A stretch of DNA of 64,000 nt from Vermamoeba vermiformis. Taxonomy: Eukaryota. Positions within the stretch are counted from its first letter, which is position 1; every line of letters starts with the position of its first letter. The stretch is from NCBI GenBank assembly GCA_045837725.1, contig JBEWZL010000152.1, forward strand, positions 248,001 through 312,000. Reading direction: 5' to 3'. Below are positions 18,294 through 48,503 of the stretch, piece after piece. Under the pieces are notes generated by a model, which was given only the letters and a program-made list of their open reading frames with translations, searched no databases and was not told the DNA's origin. The translations under genes and the position numbers were made by a program.

Positions 18294-19045
18294 TAAAATA
18301 ATACGAACCAACGTAGTTTAAAATCCGGATTTAGATCCTTGATCTTACCTTTTCTGTGGGCTGTTGCAAGAATGTAGAATCTATCAACGACAATATAAAA
18401 TCCAGCACAAAAATTAGAAGCCTAGTTGTGCGTGGAAATATGACCAGAAAGAGAACAAAAAATTAATCTGAGTTTGGACTAGCTCGCTCTTTGGCAGCTG
18501 CTGCAAAAGGTAGAATCTCGTAAATACTAATAAAATGCGCAACCAGCTATTGGACAGCGATTAACGACCTTTCACAGCCGATCAAAGAGCGTTTCTTGAC
18601 GGCGTCAGATCTGACGGTTACCAAACAATCTGGGCCTTCCTTTATCTCTTGTTATCATTGACGCGATATCGGTGATCGACTCTACCTCTAATTGCACGAT
18701 AATAGAACTGGGGCTTGGCAAACCAGAACACGCAAACACGAGCACTGGTACGCGTTATTTTCAAGCTGGCAAATCGACTATTTATTGGAAAGTTTCATTC
18801 ACTTCATCTTTGGTATTGTTATCAAATAGCTTTCGGTATGCGAAGTCATAAGAAAGGCTTATTTTGGTTGACTTGAAATTTCCGAATTTCGGAGCTTGTA
18901 GCGCTTGCTGCTCCAAATAGGTTTAAAATTATTACGTGGTTCGTAGATTCGATAGGAATTTCCCGCATTCCGGAACGATACTCGTTACGCGAAGTTCGTT
19001 GGAATATAACGTTAACGAAGTAGTCGACTACCACACGTAACGAGC

Positions 19046-20183
19046 ATGTTCGAACAGACCAGATCTAAAGCTAGAATTCTAAGCCAACACTTAGAATTAC
19101 CACCAGAGCAACAAACTGCAGTTGAATCGATTCTTAATGACATCGTCTTTCCTTCATTTGGCCGAGATCACTTTTACCCTCGTTGGCCTTCCTACATCAC
19201 CGACGATTTTTCGCCCATAGAATTCAGCGTATCATTTTCTCCGAAAGGCGCGAAGTTAAGACTTATTTTTGAGCCTCTTGGCAACGAAGATCCAATTGAC
19301 CTGATCAAGCTTCGAGACGCATCCGCGAGCACTTTGGAACTGTTGAGAAAGCGTTGGCCTTATGAACTCAACTTGGTTCAGTTCAACGCGGTCAAGGACT
19401 TGTTCTTCATTGATGACCCGCGTGGCAAATTGGTCTGCTGGTACGGCGTTGACTTCGGCGCAGCACCTATTATCAAGGTCTATTTCAATCCACAAATTCA
19501 AAAGCCCGAAAAGTCCGCACTTAAAGTTGGCGAGGAGTTTATGGAAAAGCTCAACCATGGTCAACATGAAGGTTGGCTAAGACTTCGTGACTACTTGGCG
19601 TCACATCCGGATACCGCCGAGATCGAGGCTTTGAGCACGGATCTGATCGCTCCTGAACGCGCGCGTATCAAGGTATAGTATTGGAATATCACGTAGCCAT
19701 TGAGCATGAGCTTATATGAGCATTTAGGTTTATGTGAGATTCTATGGTGCCACTCTAGCGACCATCGAAGAGGCCTTGTCGGTTACCCACAGATCCGACG
19801 TGAAAGCTTACGTAGAAGAACTCCGAAACACGTTTTGCAAGGGCATGAGAACCTTCTCGGGTGGTGTAGTAACATCGGGCGTTATGATCACTTTCATCTT
19901 CAACCCAACGGATCCGAATCCGCTTTACCGAGTGCACGTGCCTTTACGCCACTACAAATCGGATCTGGTTATTTCTGGTATGGTAACGGACTTCTTGAAT
20001 GAGAACAATATGGAGAGATATGCGACTGGTTATCAGAAGATGATCCAAGAATTCTCTGGGAATACAATGCATCATTCAGGCTTTCAGACTTACGTCTCGC
20101 ACGCACGTCCAACGGCTTCTACTGTTGACTTAACAGTTTATATAGCCCCGCTCTTGTTCACTAAGACCGACCTAACTAGTTAA
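19046..20183 (+). CDS. DMATS/ABBA-family aromatic (indole-type) prenyltransferase, bacterial-like
   Basis: PRWPSYITDDFSPIEFSVSF...LRLIFE, IKVYFNPQ, LSTDL..PERARIK|VY and terminal TVYIAP motifs of the Trp_DMAT family. One intron at 19673-19727 restores KVYVR in frame. Confidence 0.8.
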
Positions 20184-21190: not shown

Positions 21191-21305
21191 CGTGATACGA
21201 ACTGATATAATTCTGAGTCCCTTTTTTTCGTAGATACCATGGAAATTTCGAAATTTCAGGCATAATTCGGTACAATCAATTTTTATCTGTTTAGCAGCGT
21301 ACAAT

Positions 21306-23077
21306 ATGATAGCATCAATACGAACTTTATTTTTACGTATATTTTTGATAGCAGCGTATTGCTTGTACTATTGGATGGTCAAGCCTCGCTTGCCAATGAA
21401 AGAGAAAAATACTAAGCAGATCCGACGAGTTTGCGTTATTGGTGCCGGCTTCAGTGGTATAGCAGCTGCTCGATCACTCATGAAAAATGGAGCAGGCTAC
21501 AGTATTGTTATATATGAAGGTCGAGAAGATTTGGGTGGAATATGGTATCAAGAAAAAGTCAAGCCAAAATTGACCCTGAATGAGCAAGCGGATCTCACAC
21601 GATACATGAGCCCATGCTGGGACACTATGGTGACCAACTCCGGTACTAAGGTATGATTTATTATTCGCATATATAATATTCTAACTATTACTAGTCAACT
21701 TTTTTGTCGGATCAACCGCTGGATCTTGAAGGCAAACTGCCGATCGATGGTGTTTCTCACCAGACCATTAAAAGCTACATTGAAGCGTATGCGAAGAATA
21801 ACGATATATATGACAAGATCCAGTTTAACACTACAGTATCGAACGTCGACAAGGTGAACAACAAGTGGCTCGTGCACATCAACACAGCAGATAGCGCATC
21901 CGTCGAAGAATTTGACGCCATCATTGTCTGCACTGGTACGCTATGGTCTCCGTTAATACCGAAAATTCCTGGAATCGAGAACTTTGAAGGCGATGTTATT
22001 CATACAAGCTTGTACACAAACGCCGAACCATTCAAGAACAAGAATGTTTTGGTTGTTGGATCCGGCACGTCATCAACCGACATTGCCTTAGAAACTAGCT
22101 TCGTTGCAAAGAACGTCTACTACTCGACGCGGAATGGCCGCATATACATCCCGAAGCACTTTTTTGGCGATAAAGTTACCGGCACTGATTTCCTCTGCTT
22201 GTGGTTCCGATTCCGAGGGCTGTTTTGGCGCAAACTGTATCAGTGGACGGGCTTATTCAGAGATTTTACGTATCCTAAGCGAGACATGCTTGATTTGACT
22301 CCGTACGGTGTCCCAGCCCCGGATGTTTCGGGATCCATTGAAAATGGTACGTTCTGTCGAGTCAACTTTGATATGCTAATGTAAATGTTGCAGACCATCT
22401 TTTATCTGTTTGTAAAATCGAGTTTATGCACAGATTGAAGGAGAAGGCAATCACTGCAAAAGGCCGAATTCGACAGGTATCCAAAAGATCGGTTGAATTC
22501 GAGGACGGCTCGTCGATAGAAGTCGATAGTATTATCTTATGCACTGGATTTAGAACGAGTTATCCATTTTTGACGAAATTTATCAACACCGAGAAGTACG
22601 GCACTCCTTATCCTTTGTACGAACAAACGTTTTACTCCAAGGATCCAACACTTTGCTTCGTTGGAGCTCCTCGTTCATCTCTTCATGCGACAGTAGCAGG
22701 TAAATATATAAAGCTATTGCATTTCGGTAGCTAACGAGTTTATCTCAGAAATGCAGGCACGATGGGTAGCAGCTTACTTGAAAGGAGACGTTGGACTTCC
22801 TACGGAGCAAGCCATGCTCAATTGGCAAACAGAGCGCATTAAAAAGTACGGAAAATCAGAAAATGGACGCGCTATTAATAACATTAACATTATCGACTTC
22901 TGCGAGTTCGTGGCTAATCAAACAAACCAGAACTTTTCGTTCATCAGAGACTTTAATATGTTAGAAAAATTATTTTATCGGCCATATTCAGTCCAACGTT
23001 TCAATATTAACGATCAAAAAGGAAAACAATTGTACTTGAGAATTCTCGATTCATTCACCTTCACTATTTGGAAATAA
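21306..23077 (+). CDS. Class B flavin-containing monooxygenase (FMO)
   Basis: GAGFSG (FAD), EGREDLGGIW, FEGDVIHTSLY (FMO fingerprint FxGxxxHxxxY), GSGTSS (NADPH), DSIILCTGF and EMQARWVA. N-terminal hydrophobic helix; three introns. Confidence 0.92.
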
Positions 23078-26020: not shown

Positions 26021-29000
26021 TTATTCAGGCTTGCGCTCGTTATCCTCCTTCTTATCATTTTGATCGTTTTTCTCTTTATCCTCGGACTTGTTGAGCGCAG
26101 AGAATGTAGTTAACGGAGCGTTACTCGACTTGACCAAAGATCTTGTCGCTTGATCCAAAATTGAACGAGCCAAATCCGGTTCCACTTCCAGCCAAGTTAT
26201 TATTCGTATTCGCAGCACTCATCTTATTGTCAGTCAAGCCAAAGTCTGAGCCCAATCGTTTGGTCATTGATGCCTCGCCAAACTGAATGCCTTGGAACTC
26301 GAACTTTGGTTGTTCTGTTTCTGTGTTCTTTGATGCATCTGTTGATGCTGGCACATTGAGCGATGATGGCGTAAATGAGAACGATGAAGGTGCGAAGGAG
26401 TACGATGTAGTTGATGATGATGTGTTGGACGTGCTCGTGTTCTTGGGCTTGACAGGCTTGTCGTCATCGCTGTCACTGTCTTCGTCGTCGCTCTCGTCAG
26501 GGATCGGGTTGCGACTCTTTTTCTGAGGTTTGTTTGGCGTCGATTGCGTTGGCTGTTGGGTAGAAGGAGCACCAAGGGCACTGCCAAAGTTCATTGAGAA
26601 CGGCGAGGCTTTGTTCGTGCTAGTGTTGCCAAAACCAAAGTTGAAAGACGGTGTCGGAGCTTGGGTCTCGGGCTTTGTCTCTTCGGTCTGACCAAACTTA
26701 AATGTCGCTGCACCCATTGCTGACAAATCAAACTTCGGTGCTTCATTCTTTGGCTCATCCTTCTTAGCCTCCGGTTGACCAAAACTTCCGGATCCGAATG
26801 AAGGAGTATTGGTACCGAACGAGGGTGTTCCAAAGCCAAAGCCGAAGCCAGTTGAAGGCGTCTCGGGTTTCTTCTCTTCGGGCTTAGCTTCTTCCTTCGC
26901 CTTCTCTTCGGACTGCTCTGACTCCTTTGGTTTGTCTTCAGGCTTCGTTTGTCCGAACGAGAACGAAGGAGTGTTGCCGAAACCTAAGGCCAAAGCCTGT
27001 TGTTGGCGCAGAGGACTCTTGTTGTTGTGAAGCACCAAAGCCGAACGAAGGAGTGTTGCTAAAGCCCGTGAAGTCAAAACTGAGCTTCTCTTTCGGAGCT
27101 GCGGAAGTGTCCGTGCTCGTGCTTGGGGCAGGGAAGTTGAATGCAAACGGCTTTTGCTCTTCTTTCTTCTCTTCAGGAGCAGGTTTATCCTCAACTTTAA
27201 GTTCAGCTTGAGGCTTCTCTTCACTCTTGGCCTCGTGCTCGAGCTCCAGCGGGCTTATCAGAAATCAGCTTGATCCTCGTGCTTCTCCTCCGTGCTCTCG
27301 GCCTTAGATTCATCAGAGCCTTGTGCTTCGGCCTTTTCCGATTTCTGCTCGGCGTTGTTGTGCTGTTGCTCTTCAGCAGGTTCAGAGGACTGATCGACAT
27401 TGCTCGTGTCAACGTTTTCTTCAGCGGGTTGGACCTCAAGAGCTTTTTCTTCAGGCTTGTCTTGTGCTGGTTCGTTGGACTTGTCCTCATCATTAGACTC
27501 GTCGATTTGTGAAGAGACAATGGATCCAGGCGGTGACATAAGAGTTGAGGCAAACAACGGGTTGTCGTGCTCAGATCCAAAGTGTGATCCACGTTCAACT
27601 TGTTTCCAGCCAGTCGATTCAACAGACATGTTTGAGCCTTCGAGCACTGAGACGCTCAGTTCAGATTGCGACTCGTCTGATCTAACAGAGTCCGTGACGT
27701 CCTTGTTCAATGACTCTTCAACATGACTGTCCGACACGAGTGATGGCACGTCACTGGGAACCGACTCAACAGCACTGCCTTCAACAGCACTCTTTTCATC
27801 AGTCTGTTCGGACTTGTCTTCAACTGCACTGTCAGTCTTAGGCTCTTCAGTTGGCTCTGCTTGCTGATTAGTGTTGTTCGAGTTGCTCGTCTCAGTCTTC
27901 TCTTCAGTGCTGCCTTTGTACTCTTCGGCAGCCGGTTGTTCGACTTGCTTCTCCTCAGGCTGGTTCTTTTTCTTCAGCACACTACGCAAGTCCACACCAG
28001 CTGCCATGCCCGGCAAGGCAAAGCCAAAGCCAAGTTTAGGCTTGGCAGGACTAGGCTCTTGTTCTGTAGTTACCACGTTAGCTATGTCATTTGCAAAGTT
28101 CGTCGATCTTACCTTCAGGCTCGTCTTTAGGCTCTGCTTCATCAACAGAAATTTCAGTTGGTTTGTCTTCAACTTCAGGCTCGGTCTCTTCCTTCTTCTC
28201 AAAAGCAGGAGGATGGCCAGGCTTACGACGATTTTTAGGGCCAGCAGCACGTTGGAACTGAATGTAGAATTGTTAGCTGGTTCAAAAGTGTCACTAAAAT
28301 AAAAGTATCACGTACGTGACTCAAAGTCGCTGTGTGCTTCTCATCAATTGCATCAGTGACGTTATGCTCGCCTTCGTGCGGGTCATCATCACTCGCTGAA
28401 GCAGGGTCTGAATCACTGCCTTCATCGTGACTCGCTTCAACTGTAGTGTTGACGGACTCGGAGACACTGTCATGGACTGACTGGCTTACTGATTGACTCT
28501 CTTGTGACTCGCTAATCACGGAGTCATTAACGCTTGGCTCTTCAACCTTCTCTTTTTCGTCCTTAGCCTCGGGCTGCTCAGACTTTTCTTCCTTATCACC
28601 GTGCTTTGGTTCGTCAGTCTCGTGTTTGTCGTCCTTAATTTCAGGTTCCTCGGGCTTTTCAGCCTTGTCCTCGTGTTTAGTCTCACCAGTCTTGTCCTTG
28701 TTATCATCTTTCTTCTCTTCTTTCTGGTCATCGGACTTTGAGAGCGAAGAGAAGGTCGTCAAAGGCGCAGCACTCACTTGACCAAAGATCTTGTCGCTTG
28801 ATCCGAAGTTGAACGAGCCAAATCCGGTTCCACTTCCAGCCAAGTTGTCATTGTTGTTAGCAGCACTCATCTTATTGTCAGTCAAGCCAAAGTCTGAGCC
28901 CAATCGTTTGGTCATTGATGCCTCGCCAAACTGAATGCCTTGGAACTCGAACTTTGGTTGTTCTGTTTCTGCGTTCTTTGATGCATCTGTTGATGCTGGC

Positions 29001-32000
29001 ACACTGAACGATGATGGTGTAAATGAGAACGATGAAGGTGCGAAGGAGTACGAGGTGGCTGATGATGATGTGTTGGACGTGCTCGTGTTCTTGGGCTTGA
29101 CAGGCTTGTCGTCATCGCTGTCACTGTCTTCGTCATCACTCTCGTCAGGGATGGGCTTCATAGGGTCCTTCAAGTGCTTCGAGGGCTTGTCTTGAGCTGC
29201 CTTGTCTTTCTCCAACAAGCCACCACCGAACGAAAAACCAAAGCTCGGTTGTGGTGCCTCATCGGGTTTCTTCTCTTCCGTCTGACCGAACTTAAACGTC
29301 GCTGCACCCATGGCTGACAAATCAAACTTTGGTGCTTCAGTGCTTTCTTGTGGCTTTTCAGACACTTTCGGCTCTTCAGGCTTCTTTTCCTCGGACTTGG
29401 TCTCAGTAGCAGGATGACCGAACGAGAACGAAGGAGTGGATCCAGTGCCGAACGACGGAGTTCCAAAACCAAAGCCAAAGCCTGTTGACGAACCACTTTC
29501 AGGCTTCTTTTCCTCGGGCTTGTTCTCTTCATGTTTCTTTTCTTCATCAGACTTTGCTTCAACCTTAGTCTCTTCAGCCTTTGTCTCTGGCTTGGTCTCG
29601 GTAGTTTGACCGAATGAGAATGACGGTGTTGTGGCACCAAATGAAGGAGTACCTCCGAATCCAAAGCCTGTTGATGAACCGCTTTCAGGCTTCTTTTCTT
29701 CAGACTTGATTTCAGCAGGCTGGCCGAATGAGAATGAAGGAGTGTTGGTGGTAGAATGAAGGAGTGCCGCCGAAACCAAAACTGAAGCCAGTTGAAGGTA
29801 CTTCAGCCTTCTCTTCCTCGGGCTTGGTTTCACCCTTTGGTTTCTCTTCGACAGTCTTGGAGTCCTTGTCATCAGTCTTGGTATGTTTGTCTTCGGCCTT
29901 TTGTTCGTCAGAAGGCTCTTTATCTTCATCCTCGTGAGAGCTGTCTCCTTCTTCGGAGTCAACTTCCGAATTATCTTCATGAACCGCTTCGTTTGTGTTA
30001 CTCTCTTCAGGCTTGTCCTTTTCAGTTGGTGTCTCTGAGGTAACAAGCTCTTTAGGCTCCTCAGTCTTCGTCTCGGTAGGTTCAGACGTGGCTGATTGGC
30101 CAAATGAGAACGAAGGGGCTGTGGCGCCGAATGACGGAGTTGATCCGAATCCAAAACCAGTTGAGGGAGTCTCAGGCTTTGCCGTTTCGGTCTTTTCTTC
30201 CTTTGGCTTGTCACTTGAAGTGGCACCAAAGTTAAAACCGAAGCTGGGAGTGGCGGTCTTGTCCTCTGCTTTCGCATCCGGCTTGTTGGTTTCTTGCTCG
30301 GTCTTAGCAGGTTGTCCAAACGAGAATGAAGGCGCGGTAGTACCAAATCCGAAGCCAAAGCCGGCAGAAGGCGTAGCATTATCGCCCTTCTTTTCTTCAG
30401 GATTTTGTTCCTTTGGTTTGTCGGATGTGACTATACCAAAGCCACCAAAGACAGGAGCAGCTTCATCCTTCTTTGATTCAGTATTGTCACTCTTAAGAGT
30501 TTGCCCGAATGAGAACGATGGAGCGCCGAAGCCAAATCCAGTTTCGGACTTGTTCTCTTCAGCCTTTGGCTTCTCGCTTGCGGGAACACCAAAATTAAAT
30601 CCAATTGAAGGCTTATCTTCAGATTTCTTCTCTTCAGGCTTTGTTTCAGCGGGCTTAGCCTCCGTAGATTTTCCGCCGAGAGAAAATGCTGGTACGCCGT
30701 TAAACGGACCTTGACCTTCTTCATCATCAGGCTGCTCAGGCTCGAGTTTTGGCGTAAAAGACTCGAAAGAAAGCTTGGGGCTTGCGGCAGGTAATTCAGG
30801 AGTCTTATCCTTGGGCTCACCGGTGAATGAAAATGATCCGAAACCAAATCCAGGTTCTGGTTTCTTTTCTTCGGTCTTATCAAGCTGTCTAGGGCTGAAT
30901 GAGAATACTGGAGCAGGAGACTCCGGTCTCTTTTCCTCCTTTGTCTTGTTGGTCGGAGATCCAAAGCTGATCGAAGGAACCTCCGCCTTCTTTTCTTCCG
31001 TAGGCTTGTCTTGTACACCAAACGAAGGAGTACCAGTTCCAAAGCTAAATTGTGGCACAATTGGATACTTTGGTGGAGCAGAAGTAGGTTGAACTTTGGG
31101 TTTGTTGTCAGGCTTTGTTGGCGTGGATGTGAGAGGCACGTCGTCGCTATCACGTGGCTTAGCCGTAGGAGTAGGGCCTGTAAACCATCCATCAGAGTCA
31201 TCGCTATGATCGCTCTCCTCGCTTTCTTCGCGCTCTTCATCCTCCTCTTCGTGTTCTGAATCCGTCTCCTCGCCGCTCTTTTCCTCGCTCGGATCTTGAT
31301 CTGACCTTTGAGAAGACGATAGCGACATGGTGTCTTTAAAGAGCTCGTTACGCTCAGATCCAAAGTGTGATCCTCGCTCTTCGCGCCAACCAGCAGACTC
31401 GACCGATCGATCGGACTTCATCAGTTCTGACGCACTCATCTCCGATTTGACAGATGAGCCGAGTGTGCTTTGTGCTGGCGATTGATTGTCTGGCTTAGCA
31501 CTGCCAAAATCGAATGATTGTGGAGCGTTACTTGGCTTACTCGCGTTGAAATTGAACGGTGAACTGTTATCTACCAACGTCGCGACCGCGCTAGATTTTT
31601 TCTCTTCCGCGGGCTTTGTAGGAGCAAAAGCAAACGGTGATTGAGTGCTCTTATCTGCAGGCTTATTATCAAAGCCAAAGAAAGGCGTTGATGTTGCAGC
31701 TCCATTGCTCTCAGTCTTCTTATCTTCAGGCTTATTTGCTGATGTCTTTGAAGCCGTAGAGTTGAAATCAAACGAGAAATTTCCAGCGCTCGGCTTGCTC
31801 TCCGCTTGATCTTTCGGCTTGTCAGTGCCGCTAGATGTTGGAGCTGGGCCAAATGAGAACGGAGACGCGGAGGTTGAAGGAGTGCCAAATCCAAATGCAG
31901 GCGTCTTGTCCGTGGACGGGGCACCAAAGCCGAATGCAGACGCCGTTGTACCTCCAGTCTTGTTGTCCGTTGAAGGTGCGCCAAAGCCAAAAGGTGCCGT

Positions 32001-35000
32001 GGTAGTGCTACCAGTCTTGTTGTCCGTTGTAGGAGCACCAAACGTGAACGGTGAAGCACCGCCTGAAGGTGCAGGTGTCGGTGTAACAGCCACTGAAGGA
32101 GCACCAAAATCAAAGGTCTGTGCATTACGCAACACTTCAGCTCGACTAGGCTTAGCAGGACTAGTCTTCGGCTGAACAATGTTTGGAGACACGATCTTTG
32201 TAGGAATTGGTGGGAAGTTTGTCGTTGCTGAAATCAAACTGGCTTTCTTTTGCGGATCCAGATCTGTGTCTGACAACTGACGTTTCTTCTTTTGAGGCTT
32301 TGACTCGTCATTTGAATCTTCGTCTTTATCTTTATAGCTTTCCTTTGGCGGTGACGGGATTGGAATGTCAGTCTTGATGACGGCCGTGGGAACGCTTGGC
32401 TTGGTCGGTGGTGCGTTGACTACTGGCACTGTGGGCGATGTGATAAATTGAATTCGGCTTGGCGTTGGCAATGTAGCTGGCGTTGGCTTTGCAACAGGGG
32501 TGCCAACGTTGAAATTGTTGCCAAACAAGTTAGTCTGTGATGGTGGCTTTGTCTCGGGTGTCGAGATCTGGTCTCCGCCAAAGTCCAACTTTCGTGCGGG
32601 TGGCGGGGACTCGTGCTTCTTGGCCGGCATATTAAACATGCTGGGCGTGCTAGGAGTGCTGGGCGTAACGCTACCCTTTGAGCTCGACAATTGCAAAGCT
32701 TCACTGCGGAGTTTTTTCAAGTCTGACAATTGCTGCTCACGTCGGCGTTTGGCTGAAGCAGTCGGTGTCATGTCCACAGCGGGAGAAATAAACGGCTGAG
32801 TGTCAAAAACAGACGGTGTGCCGGGTGTCATGGGAGTCAAATTAGTGTTCTCCAGTTCCATGGGATCACCACGGAGAGCATGAAGTTCGTTCTTGAGCTG
32901 TTCTAATTTCTTTTGTTCTTCTTCTTTCGTGAACGAAAAATCGCTTGAACGCTTCATGTACTGTTCAGCTCGTTGCAAAAACTCCTTTCTGTGGTTCATT
33001 TCGTTAGCACTGGAAGTCTATTAAGCGGTCATAATGCTTACCTTTGTGATGATTGGAACTGAGACAAAGACAACTCGATCAACAGCAAGTACGAAGAACT
33101 CGTGCCCAGATTGTTGACACAAGCCATGGCTTTAGTGTAATCATTGATTTTCAACGCTCGTTTCGCCAATGTTTCCAAGATATTTCGTGCGTCATCAAGC
33201 ATTGCTTGTTTGTCACTAAGAAGGTAAATATTATTAGAATAAGAACACCATAATGGACTTTAACGAATCTTACCTTTGTACGATGGAATTGTTGACACGT
33301 GTCTCCAAAAGTTGACGCAATTGTTTCACGAGCTTTTTGCCCAAGTTGATCGTATACTTTTCATAAACAGGCGCGAATTCTTTTTGCAGCTCGGTCTCGG
33401 GGTCAATGCAACGACCACTGTAGAGCTTGGTCAAGAAATAAAGTGACGGATTATCACTTGGTCCAATTCTAAAAAGTGTGCGTTAGTCTTACTTTCCATT
33501 ACTATAAAATTGTTCTATTCATACCTAATCTTGTCAATCCAGTGGGCGATGCTAGTAACCGAGGGCAAATCTTCGTGCTTGGTCCACGGCGCGTCTAATT
33601 TCTTTTTGCTAGACAGAATTCTGATCGCCTTTCGACTGTCACGCCAAAGCGGGTCATTGGCGTTGATGGCAGGTGTCAAAAGTGTCACATAGAAATACGT
33701 GATAAAATCGACTACGTGAGGCGAAGACATCTCGCGGTAAATGTTCGTGTCAATTTTGGGCAGATCCAAGCCAAACAAAGTGTTGAAAATTTCTTCAATA
33801 ACGCCGTGTAACTTGTTCTCGTGATAAAATCCACAAACGCGCAACACGCTGTCAATGTTATCAGCGTATTCAGGAGTCGAAGTGAGAATTTGCAAGTCTA
33901 GGCCCTTCGTTGAATTCAACAACCCATCGATGTCAAATGACGCCAATTGTTCTTCGTCCAAATGACCTTTGTACGTGTTGATTAAGCTCCAAAGTTGCTT
34001 GCCAACTTCGCTACGTCGCTGAAGTGTGGACATTTTGCTCTCAGCAGGAAAATCTGTAACAAAACAGAATTAGCCCTGCAAAAGATGACTTTCACGTGAG
34101 AAACGTACTGTTAAAACATTTGTTAAGTCTTGCAAATGCTTCTCGCAATGCAGTCGTTTGTTCTTCGCTGGAAGTGGTTTGACTCGCCTCGCGAATGAAC
34201 GTCGAGGCGTAATGTTGATCGACACGTGCAGCGTATTCCTAATAAGGCAATGAGTTAATAATACTGTAATCGTATAGTAGGTCCCGGGCTTACATCAATA
34301 GCATAGGTCCAATATAGCTCATCATCTTCGTCGAGCTGTGCAGGAGGGTTTTCTCGAGCAGATCTCACCAGATCCTCGAACTCTTTGCACTTAGTCATGC
34401 TTAAAGTATAGAAGCTATTCAACCATTAGCACCATATATATATATATCGTCTATTATACTTACTTTGAATCAATAAATAGTTTGGTGTATCGGTCGGCAA
34501 AGTGCATCCACGCCAACACAATTTCGTGCATTTGAACTGTTTGATCAGAATCATCGTCCATTGCATCATCTATATTATATTATTAGCATCGTATTACTAT
34601 AGTAATATAATATAAGCGTATAATTACCTTGTTGTTTTTCTTTGTGTTTTTGGATCAGTCGCGATAAGAAATGCAAGCCCCATTCCCACCATCGAATATT
34701 TGTTTCAAAATATCGATTGCACTTTTCAAAGTGTTGGAATATACTACCAAGATAATATTATTAATGCTAATAATTATTTTTGAAACGTTTTTTTGAGTGA
34801 CTTACGAAAAATATGACTCGCGTGCTTCGAGGGCCTCCAAGTACTGAATATTAATGCCTAAATGCTTGGGATAATGAACGAGACCTGCTGCGGCCTGTTC
34901 GAACACTTTGCTCGCATCTGCAAATGAAAATTATCAAATTTAACTCGTGTTCGATGTATTCAAAAGTGACGTGTGAGGACTTACTTGACAGCTTCAAAAT

Positions 35001-39609: not shown

Positions 39610-40117
39610 ACACTTCTCATGCTTGCGTACGTAAGCCTATTGTTTAATTTGTTAAGTAAACCTCAGCTAGCATTATAAAATAATGAACGGTACGTTTTTC
39701 GTCAACTTCTTTAAAGCGACCTGAGGAGAACCTGAAAGGACCATGATACTCGGCATTAAGAGTAGAAGGTGAAAAGAGAGAGGCACAATATAAAGCTCTA
39801 CCCCGCATACTTGGCCTATCACAACATAGCATACCAAAACAAAATGACAGTGTCAAAATCAAAATGTCAAAGTCCGCATTAATTGTACGAATTCATCAGA
39901 GTCTATAATTGCTGTGAATGGCTTCATACATATGACTGAAGATTTATCTAAACTTCGTGTGAGTTGGGTTCTATCTTGTAACTCCTTATCTGACCTCGAA
40001 AGAACCTACAGCAACACCAAATTTATGCGTAATAATGTTTCAAGCGCTGATCTAATAATATGATTATTTTATTACATGACATGATGTTAAGCGCTTGAAA
40101 CATTAAGGCAATTATTT

Positions 40118-43100
40118 TTAATCTTCCCATTCTTGTTCCCAATCGTCTTCTTTCTCGTTCTTCCAGTCCTCGCCTTCAATGGCCATTCTTCGCGCAACAA
40201 TTTGTTCCATGCCCCAAGTGTTTGACGGCGCAGCTTTAGGCTTCTCGATCGGTCGATCCGACACTTTCTTCAAGTTGAATTTTCCTCCCTTAATAGCGTT
40301 CATAGTCTCAGCTTGAACGTCGATATTAGCAGGCTTCTTTGGAACGTTATCGACCTTCTTAAGACGAGCTAAGCCAGATCCAAGTTCCGCGATCAGATCT
40401 CCTCCAGAGGCACCTTGATCCGATGATCCAGAGTCAGTAACTGTCACCTTAGGAGCCTTTTCGGTCTTGAGCATAGGAGGAGGTGGTGGCGGGGCAGAAG
40501 GACTAACATTATCGTTAGTATACATTATCCTATGAAAAGTTTTTGCGTGTCAAAGTACGTACCCTCCGATAGGTGGTGGTGGCGGAGCAACTGGTGCGGG
40601 AGCATCAACGGCCGCTGATTAACGTTCATTAGTACCTCGATGATAGATTGATTGAATAAATGTCAAAACTTACGCTCTTCATTGTACTGCGCACTTGACA
40701 CTTCGACAGCACGAGGCGTGAGTGGCACTGGGTCATCACCATTGGCAGTGGCCACGAGTGCCATCAAGAACTTCTCAACTGACACGTGTACGTTATCGAC
40801 GTAAGGCTCAAGAATATCCAACACGCCCAAACCCTAAAGAAGTGCATATTAGACACGTGTCAAGTGTCACTTTACATGCGCTAAAACATACGTCAATGAA
40901 GTACTTCAAGTCTTTGCAAGCGTTCAAGCAAGTGTCAACGCGAGCACGAATTCGGTTGACAAGGATTTCAGGGCTAATGCGTTGGTTTTGGAACTCTTCA
41001 ATGTTGACAGATTGAGGGGTTTCGCTTAACTCGACGAACTTCAAGGACTACACAACGACCGTTAGTATTCCAATTCAGTTACGTTTATATCTCATTTAAT
41101 ACTTACCTCGGGGTCACCAATGACTGACAATTGATAGTCCAAGTAGACATCGGGGTAGAAAGTTGAAGGCGTGATAACATATGGGTACGGGCTAGGATCA
41201 AAGTCAACGACGCAACTCACTACAAAGCAATTAGATTAGCATGAATCCATTGATAATATGATGCCTTCGTGCTACTCACCGTCACGAGACTGTTCGAAGT
41301 TGGCCTTGGCAATCAAGTCTGCAGAGTCAGTAGTCTTGGGCAAGCCGTTCTCATCACTGTTTGTGACGTAGAAACCAACAGCTGCGTATTCGTCGGGATT
41401 GGCAACTTCAACGTTAGGCGATTGCACGAGTACAATGCACAGCCTACGCAAGAGTTAGTTTACGAATGACACTTTGACACGATCAATGTTCAACACGTAC
41501 TTGACGGGTTGTTTAACGAGCAAGAAATAACGAGGGTTAGTCAACCAGCGCTCGTGATCGTTGATGCAACCACCAGCTGATTTAGCGTCCCATTTGCCCT
41601 ATGAACAAAGGTGTTAGCAATCGCGGCACGTGACGGTACCTTTAAGATAATGAGGTCCTTACCAATTTAGTCAAGAAGGCTTGCTCGATAGCGTTCATCT
41701 TAACAGCGGGGGTCTCGCTGTAGACAGTCACAGTGAACGGTGACTCTTGGCCAGGAGCAAATGTTGAAGTGACAATGTTGTAGTCACCGGGCTCAGCGTC
41801 AAAATTGACGAGAACTTCGCTGCCCTTTCTGAAAGCACCCTTCTTGATGATGTCTTTAGGCTCCATCTCAACGGTACGACCTCCATCAACTACAAAAAAT
41901 CAAAAGTTAGCGTCAAGTTGCTGTTGGACACCGCCGAACTCGTCACTTACAAGGTGCTTTGACGAGGTAGAAACCAATGCTGAGATCGTTCTTCTCCTTG
42001 TCTTTGTCCTTCTTGTCCTTGTCCTTTGATTTCTCCTTGACAGGCACGCTCACTGACAACCAAGCGTTGCCGCGTTCTCTAAATTGCAAGCTGAATTGCG
42101 GGTTGTTACGCCATGTGGAATGGTTCAAACAGCCACCAGCAGTGATGCCTTTCCACTCTCCCTTAGCCTCAACAGTAGTGAAGATATCGGGCAATGGCGT
42201 TAATGTCACGACTTCAGTGAAATCTCCGGGGAACTTGGAGAAGATCGAGAAGCTGAAGTTAGCTTCTTGGCCTGGCTTAAATGTGCAAGGCACGACGATA
42301 TAACCGTTCTCGTTAGGCTCAAAGTGTTGAGTCAAGATCACTATAAAGATAACAGGTTAATACGTAGCAATGTTAAAAAGATCCGGATCCAATCTGATCT
42401 ACTCTACAGTACGTACTGTCACGAATGGTAGCAAATCCAGCCTTAGCGACAATGTCATCCTTAGTCACAGTCAATCTGCGCTTGCCTGAGCCTTTAACGA
42501 TGTAAAAACCGATCGATTGGAACTTGCCACCAGCGCCTTCAGATTGACGCAGACGGAAGTCGAGATCAATGGGTTGATTGACAGTCATCAAGAACTGCGG
42601 GTTATTGCGCCACGTGAAAGGATGGTTCAAACAGCCTCCTGCTGTCTTGCCCTTCCATTCACCTTGCACGGAGAGTTCCTTAGCATTGGTCAACTCGTCC
42701 ATTTGGATGTCCTTAGTGCTCCACAAGTACAAAGTGAAACTCGATTCCCTGTGAAATAAGGGAATTAATGACTATAGCTAAGGGATGATAGGCGATATAA
42801 TGATATTTTCAAGGTTGCAAGCTGGATCCAAGTTAATGAAACTTACTTGGCAGGATCGAAAGTACACGGGACGACAACATATTTGCCAGGAGTTAATTCG
42901 ATTTCAGCACCGCCTATATTGAATGTTAAGTCAGTACTTTACCGTTCGTTCTAACTGAATATCTCCATTAAATTTGCCAAATTTAGCTTTTTCAATTGAA
43001 AGATATTGTAAATGCTTGAAAGTTTCAGAAAAGGCGTCGGTATTAAACTTACAATCGGTAGGACTAGCGAACTTTCCCTTAAGAATAATGTCGTCATTCT

Positions 43101-46100
43101 TGACTGTAATCAACTTCTGCGTTGCGCCTTCAGTTTTAATGATGTAGAACGAGATCGGATCGAAATCTTCTTCCTCTTCTTGCAAAAGTAAGGCATCGAG
43201 CTTAGTCTTGTCCTGTACTGTAAGCAAGTATTGAGGATTGTTTAAGAACGTTGCGTAGTTCTTGCATCCACCGGCAGTTTCTTCTTTCCATTCACCCTGG
43301 ATTGCAAGTTACGCTGTTAATTAATGCACATAGATGTGTATTAAAAATTATTACTGAAATCCCGTATCAATTCAATTGAATTGTGAGTCACAAACGTAAA
43401 TCGGTGGAGATCCGAACATTTCTAAAATTAGCGAGATCCAACCAGATTTTTTTAAAAAGTGCGCCAAATTATTTGTGCACAATTAATTAAGCAATAAGAT
43501 TTGCTACTTGCCTTAATAACATGAGAGTTCCATTCGTGTTCTTTGCCGTTTCTTTGAAGCGTGACATCGCTGCTCGCGACCACACTCAAAGTGAAACCTT
43601 TTTCCTCACCAGGAGTGAACGTGCACGGTAATATGACGTAAGGGGCTTTAGTAGGTGCCAACGAGATTTCAAGGGTGGCTATAGAAATACATAAATTAAT
43701 TATCAAACTGTTTGTGTACTGTCGCGGATGTGACACTTGCCTTTCGCCGTGTTCGTGAACGATGCTTTGGCTTCAATGAAATCCTCGGGATCCTCTCCGA
43801 GATATACAACTTGCTTGTCTAAACAACAATGATTTAGTTTCGCTTCACTGAAGGCGGATTTGAATCCCGCCAGACAGATTCAGAAACTTACTTGCGTGCT
43901 TCGGCTTAATAACGTAGAAGCCAATGGAAGAGAAGTTGTTCTTGCCTTCTTGCGTCAAAGTAATGACGATTTTAGTCTGTTGCTTGACGGTCAAGAAGTA
44001 TTGGGGATTGTTGCGCCACGACTGGTGATTGAAGCAGCCACCAGCACTCTTGCCCTTCCATTGACCTTGCATAACGATGTCTGAGCCAGTAAAAGGACCA
44101 ACATCTTCAACGAAAGCATCACCGCCTTCTCTGCGAGGAGTCACCAAGGAAGGACGAGGAGATTTGGCACCAGATGCGGCGAGTTGGGACTTGAGCGATT
44201 CAACTAGCTTAGTGAGCTCATCGACTTGTTGTTGTGATGCCGCGTATTTGGCGGTCAATTCTTCGACTTTCTTAGTATCTGCAGCTGAGGATTCGGATCT
44301 GTCTCTTCGCGAGGATCTTTTCCTTCTTATCGCGGCTAGATTTGTCTTTATCTATGCATAACCGATTTAAGTACTTCTGACTTAAATAAAATCAAGCAAT
44401 ATACTTCTCTCAAAGAGAATTGAAAAATAATTCAGATCGCGTGTACTGGCCTTCAAACGATCTCTAATCCAATATGTATTTCCGCAATTAAATGACTTAC
44501 GCTTTTCCTTCTTCTCTGGGTCCTTGGAAGAAGCTGCAGGCTCGTCCTTGGGCTTATCAGTGGCTGCAGTAGCGGCGTACGCATCCAAGCTGATCTTAGG
44601 GCGGGTTGACGGACGAGGAGGCAGGTCAGGCTTAGCAGCAGGAGCTGTTACCTCGGGCTTGACTTCTTCTTTAGGCTCAGGTTCATCGGCTAAGCAATTT
44701 AAAATAAGGTTAAGAAGGTTAGCGAAGTAAGATCCACGTCGATCAAAAAATTAATTGTACTTGTCCGACCTAATAAGGCCAAATGAGATATGTGGTTGTA
44801 AATCGATGGAAGGATGTATAATATGTATATTACTTACCTCGACCAGGAACACGGATCTTCTTGTTGGTGTAAACGTTGAACTTGAACTTAGCCTCATTAG
44901 CAGGCTCAAAAGTGCATCCAATAATCGAGTAGTGACCAGGCTCCAAGTCACCGCGAACATTAGATTCACTAGTATCCTCGAATTGAGACTTCAAGATGAT
45001 ATTCTTTGACAAGATCTTGGTCACGTCATTCGCATCTGGTTCAAAAAGAGAGTCGATGAGCCATTAATATTCAATCGTAATAATATATATGTTTAATAAC
45101 GATATTTAGCTTATGAGCGCCACAAATTAGCCAACCGAATGAAAAGATTTTGAAATGAATTATGAAGCGACAAAATTTCCATGTAGCACGTAAATGGTTA
45201 ATACAAAGGTTGAAATATTATATCATAGTATATCGTACCTTCAGCCTTCAATACATAAATACCGAGCTGATTGAAGTCTTCCTTTTGAGTTTGAGACAGC
45301 ACGAAAATAGCGTGAGTTGGTTCTAAGACTTCGATATGGAATTGAGGGTTGTACTTGAACGTAGAATGATTTTTGCAGCCTCCTGCACGAGCACCGGCCC
45401 ATTCGCCCTATTATAATTAATTATTAGAAGGCACGATGGTCGGGAGATGAAAATATTTGTTACGGAATATCAGGTATTTTATCGTAAGCATTTAAAAATA
45501 TTATGAAGCGCCGTATAATACTATTTTCTTGAAATTGCAATGTAATTCACAATGATAAGCGTAATTTTATGCAGAGTCTAGGTAGTTACGAAGCTGTTAA
45601 ATTCGTATAGTGATACTTACCTCGAATTCGGTATCTCTATAATCTTTTTTAGCATCCAAATCCGTAAGAGTACCAGCAGTAGTGGTCAATTTGAAATTGC
45701 CACTCGTTTTGGGATCGAAAATGCAAGGGACGACGTTATAAAGGCCAGCCTCCAAATCAAAAGCAGAAGATACTATTAAAAAGGATATTGAGCAAATGTT
45801 CGCGATTAAAAGAGTTAACTGACATGATCTGGCTCAAAATTTAAATTTCAAATATTATTTTTAATATTTTACCTGTCTTCATGCTCTTGAAACCACTCTT
45901 GCCAACTTGAGCATCCTTCAAAATACTTCGTTTGCCGTCTACAAAAAATTAATCAATAATTATGGACCCAAAATATGAAAAGATTACGTCAAGATTTTTG
46001 ATATCAACCAACAAATATCTGCAGTGGAAATTAGGCAATAAATTAAATTATAATAATACGATTATTATTTTGCTAATTATAAATACAAACCTTCGGATTT

Positions 46101-46339
46101 CAAGACATAAAAGCCGATGTGGTTGTCCTCTTGCTGCGTCAGTTCCAAAGTTACTTTTGCCTTAGAAGACAGATTCAATACGAACTGTGGGTTGTTTCTC
46201 CACGTAGGGTGATTGAAACAACCGCCAGCAGTACGACCCTTCCAAGATCCCTAGATGAAGCACGTTGTCAATACCTACACCTCTTATAACCCCGTTTGCA
46301 CGTGCAATTATTATGATAGTATACCTTAACTTCAGTCAT
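40118..46339 (-). CDS. Seven tandem calpain domain-III (CBSW/C2L) repeats plus C-terminal polyproline-WH2-WH2-C-A
   Basis: Seven GxW...AGGCxN....xxNPxF/Y motifs (~46250, 45400, 44060, 43290, 42660, 42160, 41590), each followed by a [VI][VIL]PxTF-type strand. No CysPc catalytic motif. Tail: PPPPPP..GDLIAELGSGLARLKKV..TMNAIKGGKFNLKKVS..MEQIVARRMAI..EDDWEQEWED*. Confidence 0.88.
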
Positions 46340-48503
46340 GGTGCTCTTTGTCGCTAAAAAAATGTTGGTAAGTCCAGTCAAACTCTGAACTTTCCTCGTC
46401 GAACAAAGTTTCACGTGCGAACACACATGCGCATAAATATTCGGGGCTTGTGGACTTCCTACAAGTTCTGTTCTCGCGTCAAACGCACAACACCGCTGCG
46501 TTGTCAATGGTATAACACAGTCGTTCCATTCCTCGAGCTGCAGATCGTGGTGACGTCAGGTGGATTGGACGCGCGTTATACACCTTTGTTGTATGTGCTC
46601 GTACGACAGTAATGTTTGCGAAACGGTAAATTAGTTGCGTCATTGTGCGAATTGTTAATACCCAGCACAACCACAAACAGCACAGTAACTCTCAACAAGT
46701 CTGACAGACAAGATCTGGGATGGCGCCATCCAAGATCGGTAAGTGTCATGAGGGACTCAAAAATAATCTGCTATATCCTCAAATATATAAATATTAATTT
46801 ATAAATACAATTTCGCAAGAATTACGAGCAAGTTGCACAGAAAGAATATTATTAAGAAAAATATCGTATCCGGGGCGTAAAAGATTACGTAACTCTTTTA
46901 CAACAGAAACACCCGTTAATTGTCAATTACTTGCGTGCTAATATTAAATAATAGGATTCAATCCTTATTGGTCAGGAGATTGAGGCCTCCGGTTTCCTCA
47001 CTACCACAACGTCGCCTTCACAGATTTGGTCGGCAACTACTACAACATCAAGCCTGATCCACTAGGGATATGCTTCCGCGTCCGTTGATTCCTAATGGCT
47101 CTACCTACGTGCTGCGTTCAGAACGGGTCTGTTACATACAGAAGACAAGTCCACCCCGGATGAGTAGATCTTGCTCATTGATGGTTCGTATTACATGATA
47201 AGAGACCCAGTGGGTGTCGGTTGATAAAAAATAATCATGAAGCGAAATCTAACACCTTGTTAAATCTTAAAATTGGTAATTTTGCATAATACCTAAATTT
47301 GGTAAAGTTAAAATTAGCATTTATCATTAGCAAACCAGGTTCGAACTAATTAACGTTGATTTTTAGTATCATGAATATAAGCTCGTGGTTGGAGGAAGTA
47401 TGACCGCTTTTTTTTCCTCAACGCTCGCTTGATCTGGATCTTTTGGTGAACGGTTGTGTTTTTGAATTCCATCTGGCCCGGAATTGAAATCTTCTTACTT
47501 CTGTGGTTTCTCCGTATTAGTTTCAATACTCTATTGGATGCCCTGCTTTAAAGCATTGTAGCTTGCACAGGAATTTTGTGAACTCACATTGCTTGCCCTT
47601 TACCAGATCTGCATGGATATTCCCCGTTCAACGCAGGAGAATGTTATTATAGGCAGACATGTCCGTCGAGTCCGAGACCTACGTTTTCTACTCGCAGATC
47701 TTGCCGACAAAGTTGGCATCCACCACGAATGTGGCCTACGAAAGGAGGAATCGAAAGGAACGATAGTTGGCAGAACGGACAACCTTTGGAATCATTAAAT
47801 CAGCTTAATCATAATGATCCGCTATGCGAGCTGCGGCAATCAGAAACTTGAATCGATAAGCTGAGGAATCAACGTATATGTAACGCCAAGCACCTGCTCA
47901 TACTACTAATATGATAGTACATGCATGCCGTCGGAGTGTGGACTAAACAAGAGGACTTTAAATACGTTGCACAATCGACGCGCGTAATTGATAAGCCATC
48001 AAACTTCAGTACCAGCGGCAATAGAGTCAATCTTACGCACGTATTTGTTCGAACGCATCGATGGTGAAATGGAACTTTCAGAAATAGAGCCGAATTTAAT
48101 AGTTTATGGATACTTCCCGCATAATCGAATTTGGAATTACGGAAATGATCAAAAGTTACCGTTTGAAGCAGAAGTTTAATCAGCAACTCGGCAGCAATTC
48201 AAATGATTTACGACTTTATTTTCACCGCGGCAACGGCGTTCTTTTAGTGATAGATACACTCGGTATAGATTGAATCTTGACCTACCCCACGGAATCACTT
48301 AATAGGCGAATTACGTTTTTGCGTATTCTTCCTAGTAAGTTAGGAAGAAGATGATTGGCGGTTAAGTGTCAGCGCACAAGGTCACGTGTAGATTTTTTCA
48401 GACATGTCAAAGATGTCACGAACGAAAACTATAAAAAGGTAAGCTGGCGGCTGGCTTCCACTTTTATTCACTTCAAACCCACTCTCAACAACACTTCTTC
48501 AAC

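What the first reader, a model, noticed from the sequence alone, without database searches (positions are those of the whole stretch)
40118..46339. Candidate new Arp2/3 nucleation-promoting factor: seven calpain-III domains fused to a WASP/WAVE-like VVCA
Seen: seven calpain domain-III modules and no protease core. The tail has polyproline, two WH2-like motifs (LIAELGSGLARLKKV; TMNAIKGGKFNLKKVS), a C-helix (MEQIVARRMAI) and an acidic end with tryptophans (EDDWEQEWED*). Established: WH2-C-A at the extreme C-terminus defines class I NPFs (WASP, SCAR/WAVE, WASH, WHAMM/JMY), and WAVE's C region reads roughly ILSRRIAV. Those families use WH1/WHD/WAHD-type N-termini, not calpain-III arrays. Inference: this may be a distinct NPF targeted by multivalent calpain-III (C2-like) modules. 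I know of no described protein with this architecture, but I cannot search.
Basis: partly seen in the sequence, partly recalled or inferred. Interest (0 to 1): 0.88.

Follow-up and report, generated by a model that had tools for sequence, protein, structure and literature searches.

The report
Calpain-domain protein with WASP-like tail
A microbial eukaryote gene joins seven calpain-type beta-sandwich domains to the short tail that WASP and WAVE proteins use to switch on branched actin growth; I found this combination in no paper, it recurs in a dozen unnamed relatives, and no activity has been measured.

Summary
A 22-exon gene on the minus strand (46339..40118) encodes seven Calpain_III (C2-like) domains and no protease core. 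After them come a helical hairpin, polyproline, two LKKV-type WH2 motifs, a C helix and an acidic tail with Trp third from the end. Spliced transcript contigs of close relatives cover every exon, so the tail belongs to the same mRNA. Of 40 listed nucleotide differences, 38 are synonymous. Twelve longer homologues (1058-1508 aa, all unnamed, none from NCBI or UniRef) keep the same layout. Their tails keep the WH2 Gly/Leu, the C-region Arg-Arg and the terminal Trp. A profile of 11 tails finds N-WASP (E 5e-9) and WAVE1 (E 1e-4) as the best solved chains. It aligns to a true SCAR/WAVE protein at E 7e-11. A conserved helix between domains 2 and 3 is modelled as a parallel dimer. My reading is a new subfamily of class I Arp2/3 nucleation-promoting factors, probably dimeric, with a C2-like array in place of WH1, SHD or WAHD heads. 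Activity, ligands of the array and the host taxon are unknown. The window copy has one extra base at 44316 compared with all relatives. This breaks the frame unless another acceptor is used.

The parts
40118..46339 (-). Whole coding region with 22 exons. Exons on the minus strand, high..low: 46339-46325, 46250-46091, 45938-45873, 45772-45621, 45407-45239, 45035-44838, 44689-44501, 44351 (or 44335)-43892, 43818-43741, 43678-43512, 43296-43053, 42913-42847, 42748-42417, 42340-41951, 41889-41663, 41598-41501, 41443-41280, 41219-41107, 41047-40892, 40833-40674, 40614-40563, 40502-40118.
   Evidence: Read from the sequence and assembled by script. Spliced joints in the contigs and reads of relatives agree. 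The model is 92% identical to P0014 over residues 192-1341.
45666..46250 (-). C2-like (Calpain_III) domain 1, spread over exons 2-4
44863..45407 (-). C2-like domain 2 (exons 5-6)
44502..44838 (-). Proline- and charge-rich linker (exon 7, plus the last base of exon 6)
   Evidence: It is disordered in the model of P0014 (pLDDT under 50 for residues 62-150).
44316..44316 (-). One base present in the window but absent from the transcripts of relatives. It breaks the frame if the canonical acceptor at 44352 is used.
   Evidence: table 4 ('left out 1' in X1, X2 and X3; X21 has no reads there). P0014 reads through..
44172..44276 (-). Helix of about 35 residues between domains 2 and 3, modelled as a parallel in-register dimer
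   Evidence: Helix 146-181 in the AlphaFold2 model of P0014. Two-copy fold.
43569..44066 (-). C2-like domain 3
42715..43296 (-). C2-like domain 4
42234..42663 (-). C2-like domain 5
41714..42161 (-). C2-like domain 6, with a Lys/Asp-rich insertion
   Evidence: Relatives differ in the insertion (loose ends at 41991 and 42026).
41113..41598 (-). C2-like domain 7
40738..41005 (-). Conserved helical hairpin between the array and the proline-rich region
   Evidence: Helices 918-955 and 960-984 of P0014, pLDDT 52-72. Aligned in P0008, P0004 and P0014.
40475..40600 (-). Proline-rich region with two polyproline runs
40352..40399 (-). WH2-like motif a, ending in LKKV
   Evidence: It aligns to the first WH2 of N-WASP. 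It is canonical only in the closest relatives.
40262..40309 (-). WH2-like motif b, ending in LKKV
   Evidence: Its Gly and Leu are invariant in 11 of 11 tails. It forms helix 1085-1094 in the model.
40172..40213 (-). C (central) helix with invariant Arg-Arg
   Evidence: Helix 1121-1131 in the model.
40121..40171 (-). Acidic end with three Trp, the last one third from the C-terminus

Best explanation
The gene encodes a member of a so far unnamed subfamily of class I (WASP-superfamily) nucleation-promoting factors. Shown: one mRNA encodes two C2-like domains, a charged linker with a helix, five more C2-like domains, a helical hairpin, and a disordered tail made of polyproline, one or two WH2 motifs, a C helix and an acidic end with a near-terminal Trp. 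Inferred: the proline runs recruit profilin-actin, the WH2 motifs hold actin monomers, and the C helix and acidic Trp bind and activate the Arp2/3 complex, as in N-WASP and WAVE. Inferred from a model: the helix after domain 2 pairs two chains in parallel, so each molecule offers two CA tails. From recalled knowledge, not tested here, that would suit the two CA sites of Arp2/3 and the higher potency of dimerised VCAs. Inferred, weakest step: the seven C2-like domains and the hairpin replace the WH1, SHD or WAHD head. They would provide localisation or regulation through ligands yet unknown. There is no CRIB/GBD, so control is probably not by direct Cdc42/Rac binding.
For: Single transcript: spliced contigs from 3 runs of close relatives show 15 listed joints across the gene, and raw RNA-seq reads of a fourth run support several of them. 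The record coordinates of X2 contig 4 (3974 nt) account for every exon from 40196 up to 44346. Depth on the further joints fits the same contig. P0014 (1150 aa) is 92% identical to the model and runs from domain 2 to the last residue.

Selection: 38 of 40 listed differences are synonymous, including 4 of 4 in the tail exon.

Family: 12 homologues (P0014-P0025) end in the same tail. In 13 of 13 sequences including the window model the last Trp is 2-3 residues from the end. 12 of 13 have a run of 5 or more Pro. 0 of 13 have a CRIB motif. In 11 aligned tails the WH2b Gly and Leu, the RR.A.E of the C helix, and an Asp and the Trp of the acidic end are invariant.

Likeness to known VCAs: the tail profile against all PDB chains gives N-WASP 6uhc_H at E 5.1e-9 (aligned over 370-501), N-WASP 3m3n_W at 7.8e-5, and WAVE1 3p8c_D at 8.5e-5 and 7usc_C at 1.4e-4. 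These are the top 4 of 9 matches. hhalign of the tail profile against P0007 gives probability 97.1% and E 6.7e-11 over its last 89 residues. P0007 is a SCAR/WAVE homologue by its N-terminus.

Fold: five beta-sandwich domains at pLDDT about 80-90. The tail is disordered, with helices only at WH2b and C. Foldseek finds m-calpain at E 5e-9 and the calpain-7 distal C2-like domain at TMt 0.77.

Positional orthology: domains 1-7 each group with the same position in P0015, P0016, P0017 and P0020. The array is therefore old and each unit has been kept.

Dimer: ipSAE 0.36 against a best control of 0.01. The mark was reached by 21 of 30 proteins solved as pairs of one chain and by 0 of 23 solved as single chains. 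On eukaryotes it was reached by 17 of 29 and by 0 of 30. The runs agree in at least 76% of contacts and the partner pLDDT is at least 69. The tool says the model supports binding and does not show it.
Against: No biochemical or cellular data exist. The Pfam WH2 model did not match the tail even at E<=10. It also listed no WH2 at E<=0.01 in the 8 homologues scanned. The first WH2 is canonical only in the window, P0014 and P0001, and is degenerate elsewhere. The acidic end of the window is interrupted by Lys (11 acidic and 4 basic residues in the last 25). I could not check whether the organism has Arp2/3, actin or profilin, because no genome is held. The window's own copy carries an extra base at 44316, which truncates the protein before the tail if splicing is as in the relatives. 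The transcript evidence comes from relatives, not from this strain: only 1 of the 32 contig records laid from X1-X3 is 99% or more alike, and 157 of the 169 reads laid from X21 are only 90-95% alike. The RNA label of X1-X3 is a guess by the tool. The dimer pass concerns a short helix of a generic kind and could be 'from memory'.
Confidence: 0.7

Rival explanations
1. The tail binds actin monomers but does not work through Arp2/3. The protein would be a WH2-based monomer carrier, sequesterer or tandem-WH2 nucleator, or a scaffold that links actin to whatever the C2-like array binds.
For: One or two WH2-like motifs and polyproline are present. A Spire chain appears among the PDB hits of the related protein P0007, which shows that WH2 likeness alone does not tell the classes apart. 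Activation was not tested.
Against: The best-conserved part of the tail is not the WH2. It is the C helix (RR.A.E) and the near-terminal Trp, which are invariant in 11 of 11 tails. From recalled knowledge these are the Arp2/3-contacting parts. The profile aligns through C and A of N-WASP and WAVE1 and of a SCAR/WAVE homologue.
Confidence: 0.12
2. In this particular genome the gene is broken. The extra base at 44316 is real, splicing is as in the relatives, and only a 342-residue product with two C2-like domains and no tail is made. The family-level reading would still hold for the relatives.
For: The extra base is absent from contigs of 3 runs (table 4) and from P0014. The canonical model stops after residue 342. 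The insertion is not a simple change in the length of a homopolymer.
Against: Downstream of the break the frame stays open for about 1000 codons, with 38 of 40 listed differences synonymous. That would not be expected of an old pseudogene. An assembly error is an ordinary cause of a single-base insertion. An in-frame acceptor 16 nt downstream (exon start 44335) would rescue the frame within a low-complexity linker. No read of this strain covers the site (X21 depth 0 there).
Confidence: 0.3
3. The likeness of the tail to a VCA is convergent low-complexity chance, and the protein is a calpain-derived scaffold unrelated to actin.
For: The motifs are short, the region is disordered, and Pfam WH2 does not match.
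Against: E-values are 5.1e-9 and 6.7e-11, and the motifs stand in the right order, spacing and terminal position. Only 12 proteins among 1.84 billion representatives match the tail at E<=0.001. Of those 12, 5 belong to this family. Pfam lists WH2 for 6 of the other 7, and 4 of those are above the cut-off. The key residues are conserved across homologues that are only 30-40% identical.
Confidence: 0.05

Closest known systems
WASP / N-WASP (class I NPF)
   Same: Proline-rich region, two WH2 motifs, C helix and acidic end with a near-terminal Trp at the extreme C-terminus. It is the best solved match of the tail profile (6uhc_H, E 5.1e-9, aligned over residues 370-501).
   Different: There is no WH1 domain, no basic region and no CRIB/GBD (0 of 13 sequences have a CRIB motif). 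The N-terminal 1100 residues are C2-like domains instead.
SCAR/WAVE
   Same: The WH2-C-A region aligns to WAVE1 (3p8c_D at E 8.5e-5 and 7usc_C at 1.4e-4) and to the SCAR/WAVE homologue P0007 (hhalign E 6.7e-11). The C helix is the most alike part.
   Different: No SCAR homology domain was found; Pfam lists only Calpain_III for the family. Nothing suggests a five-subunit regulatory complex. The window protein has two WH2 motifs.
WAWH and WAML (proposed WASP-family members, Kollmar et al. 2012, PMC3298513; passages read)
   Same: These are precedents for lineage-restricted WASP-family members. They keep PRD-VCA and carry another head: no WH1 in WAWH (one type has a long coiled coil) and an IMD domain in WAML.
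   Different: Their heads are GBD or IMD based. The word 'calpain' does not occur in that paper.
Calpain large-subunit domain III / C2-like domain (m-calpain, calpain-7)
   Same: Each of the seven modules matches Pfam Calpain_III. The model superposes on m-calpain (E 5e-9) and on the calpain-7 distal C2-like domain (2qfe, TMt 0.77).
   Different: There is no CysPc protease core and no penta-EF-hand, so this is not a protease. Seven units stand in a row. In the passages I read, the calpain survey PMC3563603 selected genes by their CysPc domain.
RhoGAP proteins with C2-like domains (P0026, P0027; unnamed)
   Same: C-terminal Calpain_III domains are fused to another regulator of the actin system (RhoGAP PF00620, plus WW in one).
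   Different: They have no VCA tail (sequences). They are only 26-28% identical to the first sequence of the query alignment (P0008).

Membership tests
Class I NPF (WASP superfamily) | The WH2-C-A module lies at the extreme C-terminus | tested here: met
   The motifs occupy the last ~95 residues and the protein ends 2 residues after the last Trp. The same holds in 13 of 13 family sequences.
Class I NPF (WASP superfamily) | Proline-rich region directly upstream of the WH2 | tested here: met
   The window has two runs of 5-6 Pro. 12 of 13 family sequences have a run of 5 or more.
Class I NPF (WASP superfamily) | At least one WH2 motif (helix plus LKKV-type motif) | tested here: inconclusive
   The window has two LKKV motifs with preceding amphipathic stretches. 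Both align to the two WH2 motifs of N-WASP and of P0007. However, the Pfam WH2 model gives no match.
Class I NPF (WASP superfamily) | C region: three large hydrophobic residues spaced by three, followed by an Arg/Lys doublet (pattern as worded in PMC3298513) | tested here: met
   In the window the M, V and M are spaced by three with RR between them. RR.A.E is invariant in 11 of 11 tails. The region is helical in the model.
Class I NPF (WASP superfamily) | Acidic end with Trp at or near the terminus | tested here: met
   The last 25 residues hold 11 acidic residues and the Trp is third from the end. The Trp is 2-3 from the end in 13 of 13 sequences.
Class I NPF (WASP superfamily) | Binds and activates the Arp2/3 complex | not testable with these tools
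   No actin or Arp2/3 sequence of a eukaryote could be handed to the complex tool, and no genome is held. This needs a pyrene-actin assay.
WASP, WAVE, WASH, WHAMM/JMY subfamilies | Subfamily-specific N-terminal domain (WH1, SHD, WAHD1, or the WHAMM/JMY N-terminus) | tested here: not met
   Pfam finds only Calpain_III in the window exons and in the 9 longer homologues scanned (P0014, 8 more; exons). The N-terminus starts with domain 1. The protein therefore belongs to none of the named subfamilies.
Calpain (peptidase family C2) | CysPc catalytic core | tested here: not met
   There is no PF00648 match in any exon ORF or family member. Only P0028, an unrelated true calpain, carries it.
Calpain_III / C2-like domain (PF01067) | Match to the domain model and the beta-sandwich fold | tested here: met
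   (5-7 stretches per protein).

The most novel reading that the evidence does not exclude
The family is an old, separate branch of Arp2/3 activators that is switched without Rho GTPases. Seven individually conserved C2-like domains, held as a parallel dimer, would read membranes, calcium or a polyvalent partner and release two VCA tails. This would give some little-studied microbial eukaryotes a direct route from that signal to branched actin, and it would give the orphan calpain domain III a function outside proteases.
Probability: 0.15. Interest if true: 0.85.

Novelty: new variant of a known kind. Interest (0 to 1): 0.68.

Why it matters
New WASP-family members are rare, and each one (WASH, WHAMM, JMY, WHIMP) has opened a new cellular use of branched actin. 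This one would show that the portable PRD-WH2-C-A output has been wired to a head of a wholly different kind, an array of calpain-type C2-like domains. It would also give a first non-protease role to a domain whose function is poorly understood even in calpains. The tail is short and easy to test. All 12 homologues found come from unnamed assemblies, none from NCBI or UniRef, so the family has escaped annotation. It may mark lineages whose actin regulation has not been looked at.

Tried and rejected
- Pfam WH2 on the tail gave no match, even at E<=10. Pfam on 8 homologues listed no WH2 at E<=0.01.
- The protein atlas gave generic Calpain_III clusters at score 0.75 for all of P0014 and no usable hit for residues 900-1150. 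This is no evidence either way.
- A word-indexed search with the last exon ('longer') found only P0013 and P0014 among 867 candidates. With P0014 residues 880-1150 it found only itself among 3806. Only the profile of distant tails reached the family.
- No whole genome is held, so the presence of Arp2/3, actin, profilin, WASP or SCAR in this organism could not be checked.
- The host taxon was not determined. Short introns with CTAAC-like branch sites and a Trp_DMAT gene nearby suggest a fungus or fungus-like organism. This is a guess from recalled knowledge.
- Earlier notes of this scan hold nothing on this genome or this protein. The giant-virus WASP-like notes listed did not bear on this report.
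- I considered autoinhibition by docking of the C helix on the helical hairpin. The monomer model gives the C helix a pLDDT of about 51 and the tail no fixed place, so I did not pursue it. It is not excluded.
- The odd joint 44346|44496 with non-canonical ends is best read as the canonical 44501|44351 junction. The aligner probably shifted it because the first exon letters of the relatives resemble the window's intron start. P0014 supports the canonical junction.
- Literature: seven full-text searches found no paper that joins calpain domain III to WH2/VCA. I read passages only of PMC3298513, PMC3563603, PMC12472444 and PMC10330494. I opened no supplements, so a listing of such a protein in a supplementary table cannot be excluded.

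Full report
**What is there**

The region 40118-46339 carries one gene on the minus strand. I read the exon borders from the sequence and assembled them by script. There are 22 exons and 21 short introns of 57-215 nt. Nineteen introns are GT-AG and two are GC-AG (43740-43679 and 43511-43297). Most have a CTAAC-like branch site.

**Is it one transcript?**

I laid four public runs on 39800-46700.
- Contigs of X1, X2 and X3 are mostly 90-99% like the window, so they come from close relatives rather than this strain. They skip the introns. 15 joints are listed and 10 more are not shown.
- The record coordinates of the listed pieces of X2 contig 4 (3974 nt) leave gaps that equal my unlisted exons exactly: 52, 489, 67 and 245-246 nt. 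That contig therefore runs through the array into the last exon.
- X21 consists of raw reads labelled RNA-seq, and most are 90-95% alike. It supports several joints, for example 11 reads at 40832|40891 and 9 at 41889|41951.
- The tool marks the RNA label of X1-X3 as a guess. The missing introns argue that these contigs derive from mRNA.

A database protein, P0014 (1150 aa, a JGI 'hypothetical protein' that is truncated at the N-terminus), is 92% identical to my model over residues 192-1341. It runs uninterrupted from domain 2 to the last residue.

Of the 40 nucleotide differences the tool listed (232 more were not shown), 38 are synonymous in my frame, including 4 of 4 in the tail exon.

**A flaw in the window copy**

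With the intron the relatives use (44500..44352), the window has one base more than X1, X2, X3 (table 4) and P0014 at 44316. The frame then stops after residue 342. An acceptor 16 nt downstream (exon start 44335) restores a 1341-residue frame inside a low-complexity linker. No read of this strain covers the site. I cannot tell an assembly error from a real lesion or a compensated allele.

**Domains**

- Pfam Calpain_III matched 11 of 16 exon-bearing ORFs, 9 of them above the gathering score.
- The motif G.W...AGGC occurs seven times.
- No CysPc core was found anywhere.
- The AlphaFold2 model of P0014 was built from an alignment of 14 sequences and has a mean pLDDT of 67. It shows five beta-sandwich domains at pLDDT about 80-90, a 36-residue helix in the linker after domain 2, and a helical hairpin after the last domain. 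The tail is disordered, with helices only at the second WH2 and at the C region.
- Foldseek puts m-calpain first (E 5e-9). The calpain-7 distal C2-like domain scores TMt 0.77.

**The tail**

An exhaustive HMMER search of 1.84 billion representatives with the 116-residue tail found only 12 proteins at E<=0.001.
- Five belong to this family: P0001, P0002, P0004, P0006 and P0008. P0004 and P0008 also show Calpain_III sequence directly upstream.
- The other seven are other WH2/CA-type proteins. Pfam lists WH2 for 6 of them, 4 above the cut-off.
- One of the seven, P0007, is a SCAR/WAVE homologue by its N-terminus.

A profile search with the distant tails then found 15 proteins among 8000 scored candidates.
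- Twelve (P0014-P0025, 1058-1508 aa) have Calpain_III arrays and the same tail.
- Two are RhoGAP proteins with C2-like domains, and one is a true calpain.
- None of the twelve comes from NCBI or UniRef, and none has a name beyond 'hypothetical protein'.

In 11 aligned tails the following are invariant: the Gly and Leu of the second WH2, RR.A.E of the C helix, and an Asp and the Trp of the acidic end. The last Trp is 2-3 residues from the end in 13 of 13 sequences. A polyproline run is present in 12 of 13. A CRIB motif is present in 0 of 13.

The tail profile against all PDB chains gives N-WASP and WAVE1 as the four best of nine matches (E 5.1e-9 to 1.4e-4). The N-WASP alignment runs from polyproline through both WH2 motifs, C and A. 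hhalign against P0007 gives probability 97.1% and E 6.7e-11.

Against this, the Pfam WH2 model never matched. The first WH2 is canonical only in the window and its closest relatives.

**The array is old**

In a tree of 43 single domains, each of the window's seven positions groups with the same position of P0015, P0016, P0017 and P0020. Support for these seven groups is 85-99 (ultrafast bootstrap), and four of them are starred. Positions 6 and 7 also group with the last two domains of the five-domain proteins P0024 and P0025. The units are therefore not recent copies and have been kept one by one.

**Dimer**

Two copies of P0014 residues 135-195 were folded. The score was 0.36 against a best control of 0.01. 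The contacts are in register (168 with 168, 175 with 175).
- The mark was reached by 21 of 30 proteins solved as pairs of one chain and by 0 of 23 solved as single chains.
- On eukaryotes it was reached by 17 of 29, but by only 1 of the 7 with no older solved relative, and by 0 of 30 single chains.
- The runs agree in at least 76% of contacts, and the partner pLDDT is at least 69.
- The tool's verdict is that the model supports binding and does not show it.

**Reading**

The best explanation is a new subfamily of class I nucleation-promoting factors.
- The output is the usual one, and its action is inferred: profilin-actin on the proline runs, actin monomers on the WH2 motifs, and the C helix with the acidic Trp on Arp2/3.
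- The head is new: a C2-like array that is probably dimeric, plus a helical hairpin. Its ligands are unknown.
- The protein fails the membership test of every named subfamily, because it has no WH1, SHD, WAHD or GBD. It meets the features of the superfamily that could be tested.
- It is not a calpain.
- Rivals are an Arp2/3-independent WH2 protein, a broken copy in this genome, and chance likeness.

**Known or new**

Seven full-text searches found no paper on this architecture.
- The WASP-family survey PMC3298513 lists WASP, WAVE, WASH, WHAMM, WAWH and WAML and never uses the word 'calpain' (passages read).
- The 2023 review PMC10330494 does not mention calpain either (passages).
- The calpain survey PMC3563603 selected genes by their CysPc domain and mentions neither WH2 nor actin (passages).
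- I opened no supplements.

I rate it a new variant of a known kind.

**What stays open**

Activity, the partners of the array, the host taxon, whether the organism has Arp2/3 (no genome is held), and whether the window copy is intact.

Noticed in passing
window 43679-43740 and 43297-43511 (minus strand): Two of the gene's 21 introns begin with GC instead of GT (GCAAGT...AG). Both are skipped in the transcript contigs of relatives (joints 43678|43741 and 43295|43511).
   Followed up: partly
window 41992-42025: The Lys/Asp-rich insertion in C2-like domain 6 is replaced by unlike sequence in all four runs (loose ends on both sides at 41991/41992 and 42026). It is a fast-changing low-complexity loop inside an otherwise conserved domain.
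   Followed up: no
proteins P0026 and P0027: These unnamed proteins combine RhoGAP (PF00620), WW in one of them, and two or three C-terminal Calpain_III domains. So C2-like domains are also fused to a second kind of actin regulator in unnamed eukaryotes.
   Followed up: no
proteins P0005 and P0012: These small proteins have a CCDC53-like (WASH-complex subunit) stretch followed by WH2-like motifs, a C-like helix and an acidic end with Trp. They look like a WASH-complex subunit that carries its own VCA-like tail. The Pfam scores are around or below the cut-offs.
   Followed up: no
window 19016-20183 (+) and 21234-22384 (+): ORFs match tryptophan dimethylallyltransferase (Trp_DMAT, E 6.5e-23 and 3.1e-5). 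Next to them are ORFs matching a flavin monooxygenase (FMO-like, E 6.4e-29). They may form a small secondary-metabolite pair.
   Followed up: no
window 26121-33017 (minus strand): Very long ORFs rich in FG repeats look like a nucleoporin. They contain a 300-nt direct repeat at 95% identity, at 26128-26427 and 28776-29075, spaced 2648 nt. This points to an internal duplication or two tandem paralogues.
   Followed up: partly
model of P0014: Among the Foldseek matches are two chains of the ciliary central-pair C1 apparatus (7n6g_6M at E 6.7e-7 and 7sqc_1B at E 3.3e-5). They are long proteins that seem to hold several beta-sandwich domains of a similar kind.
   Followed up: no
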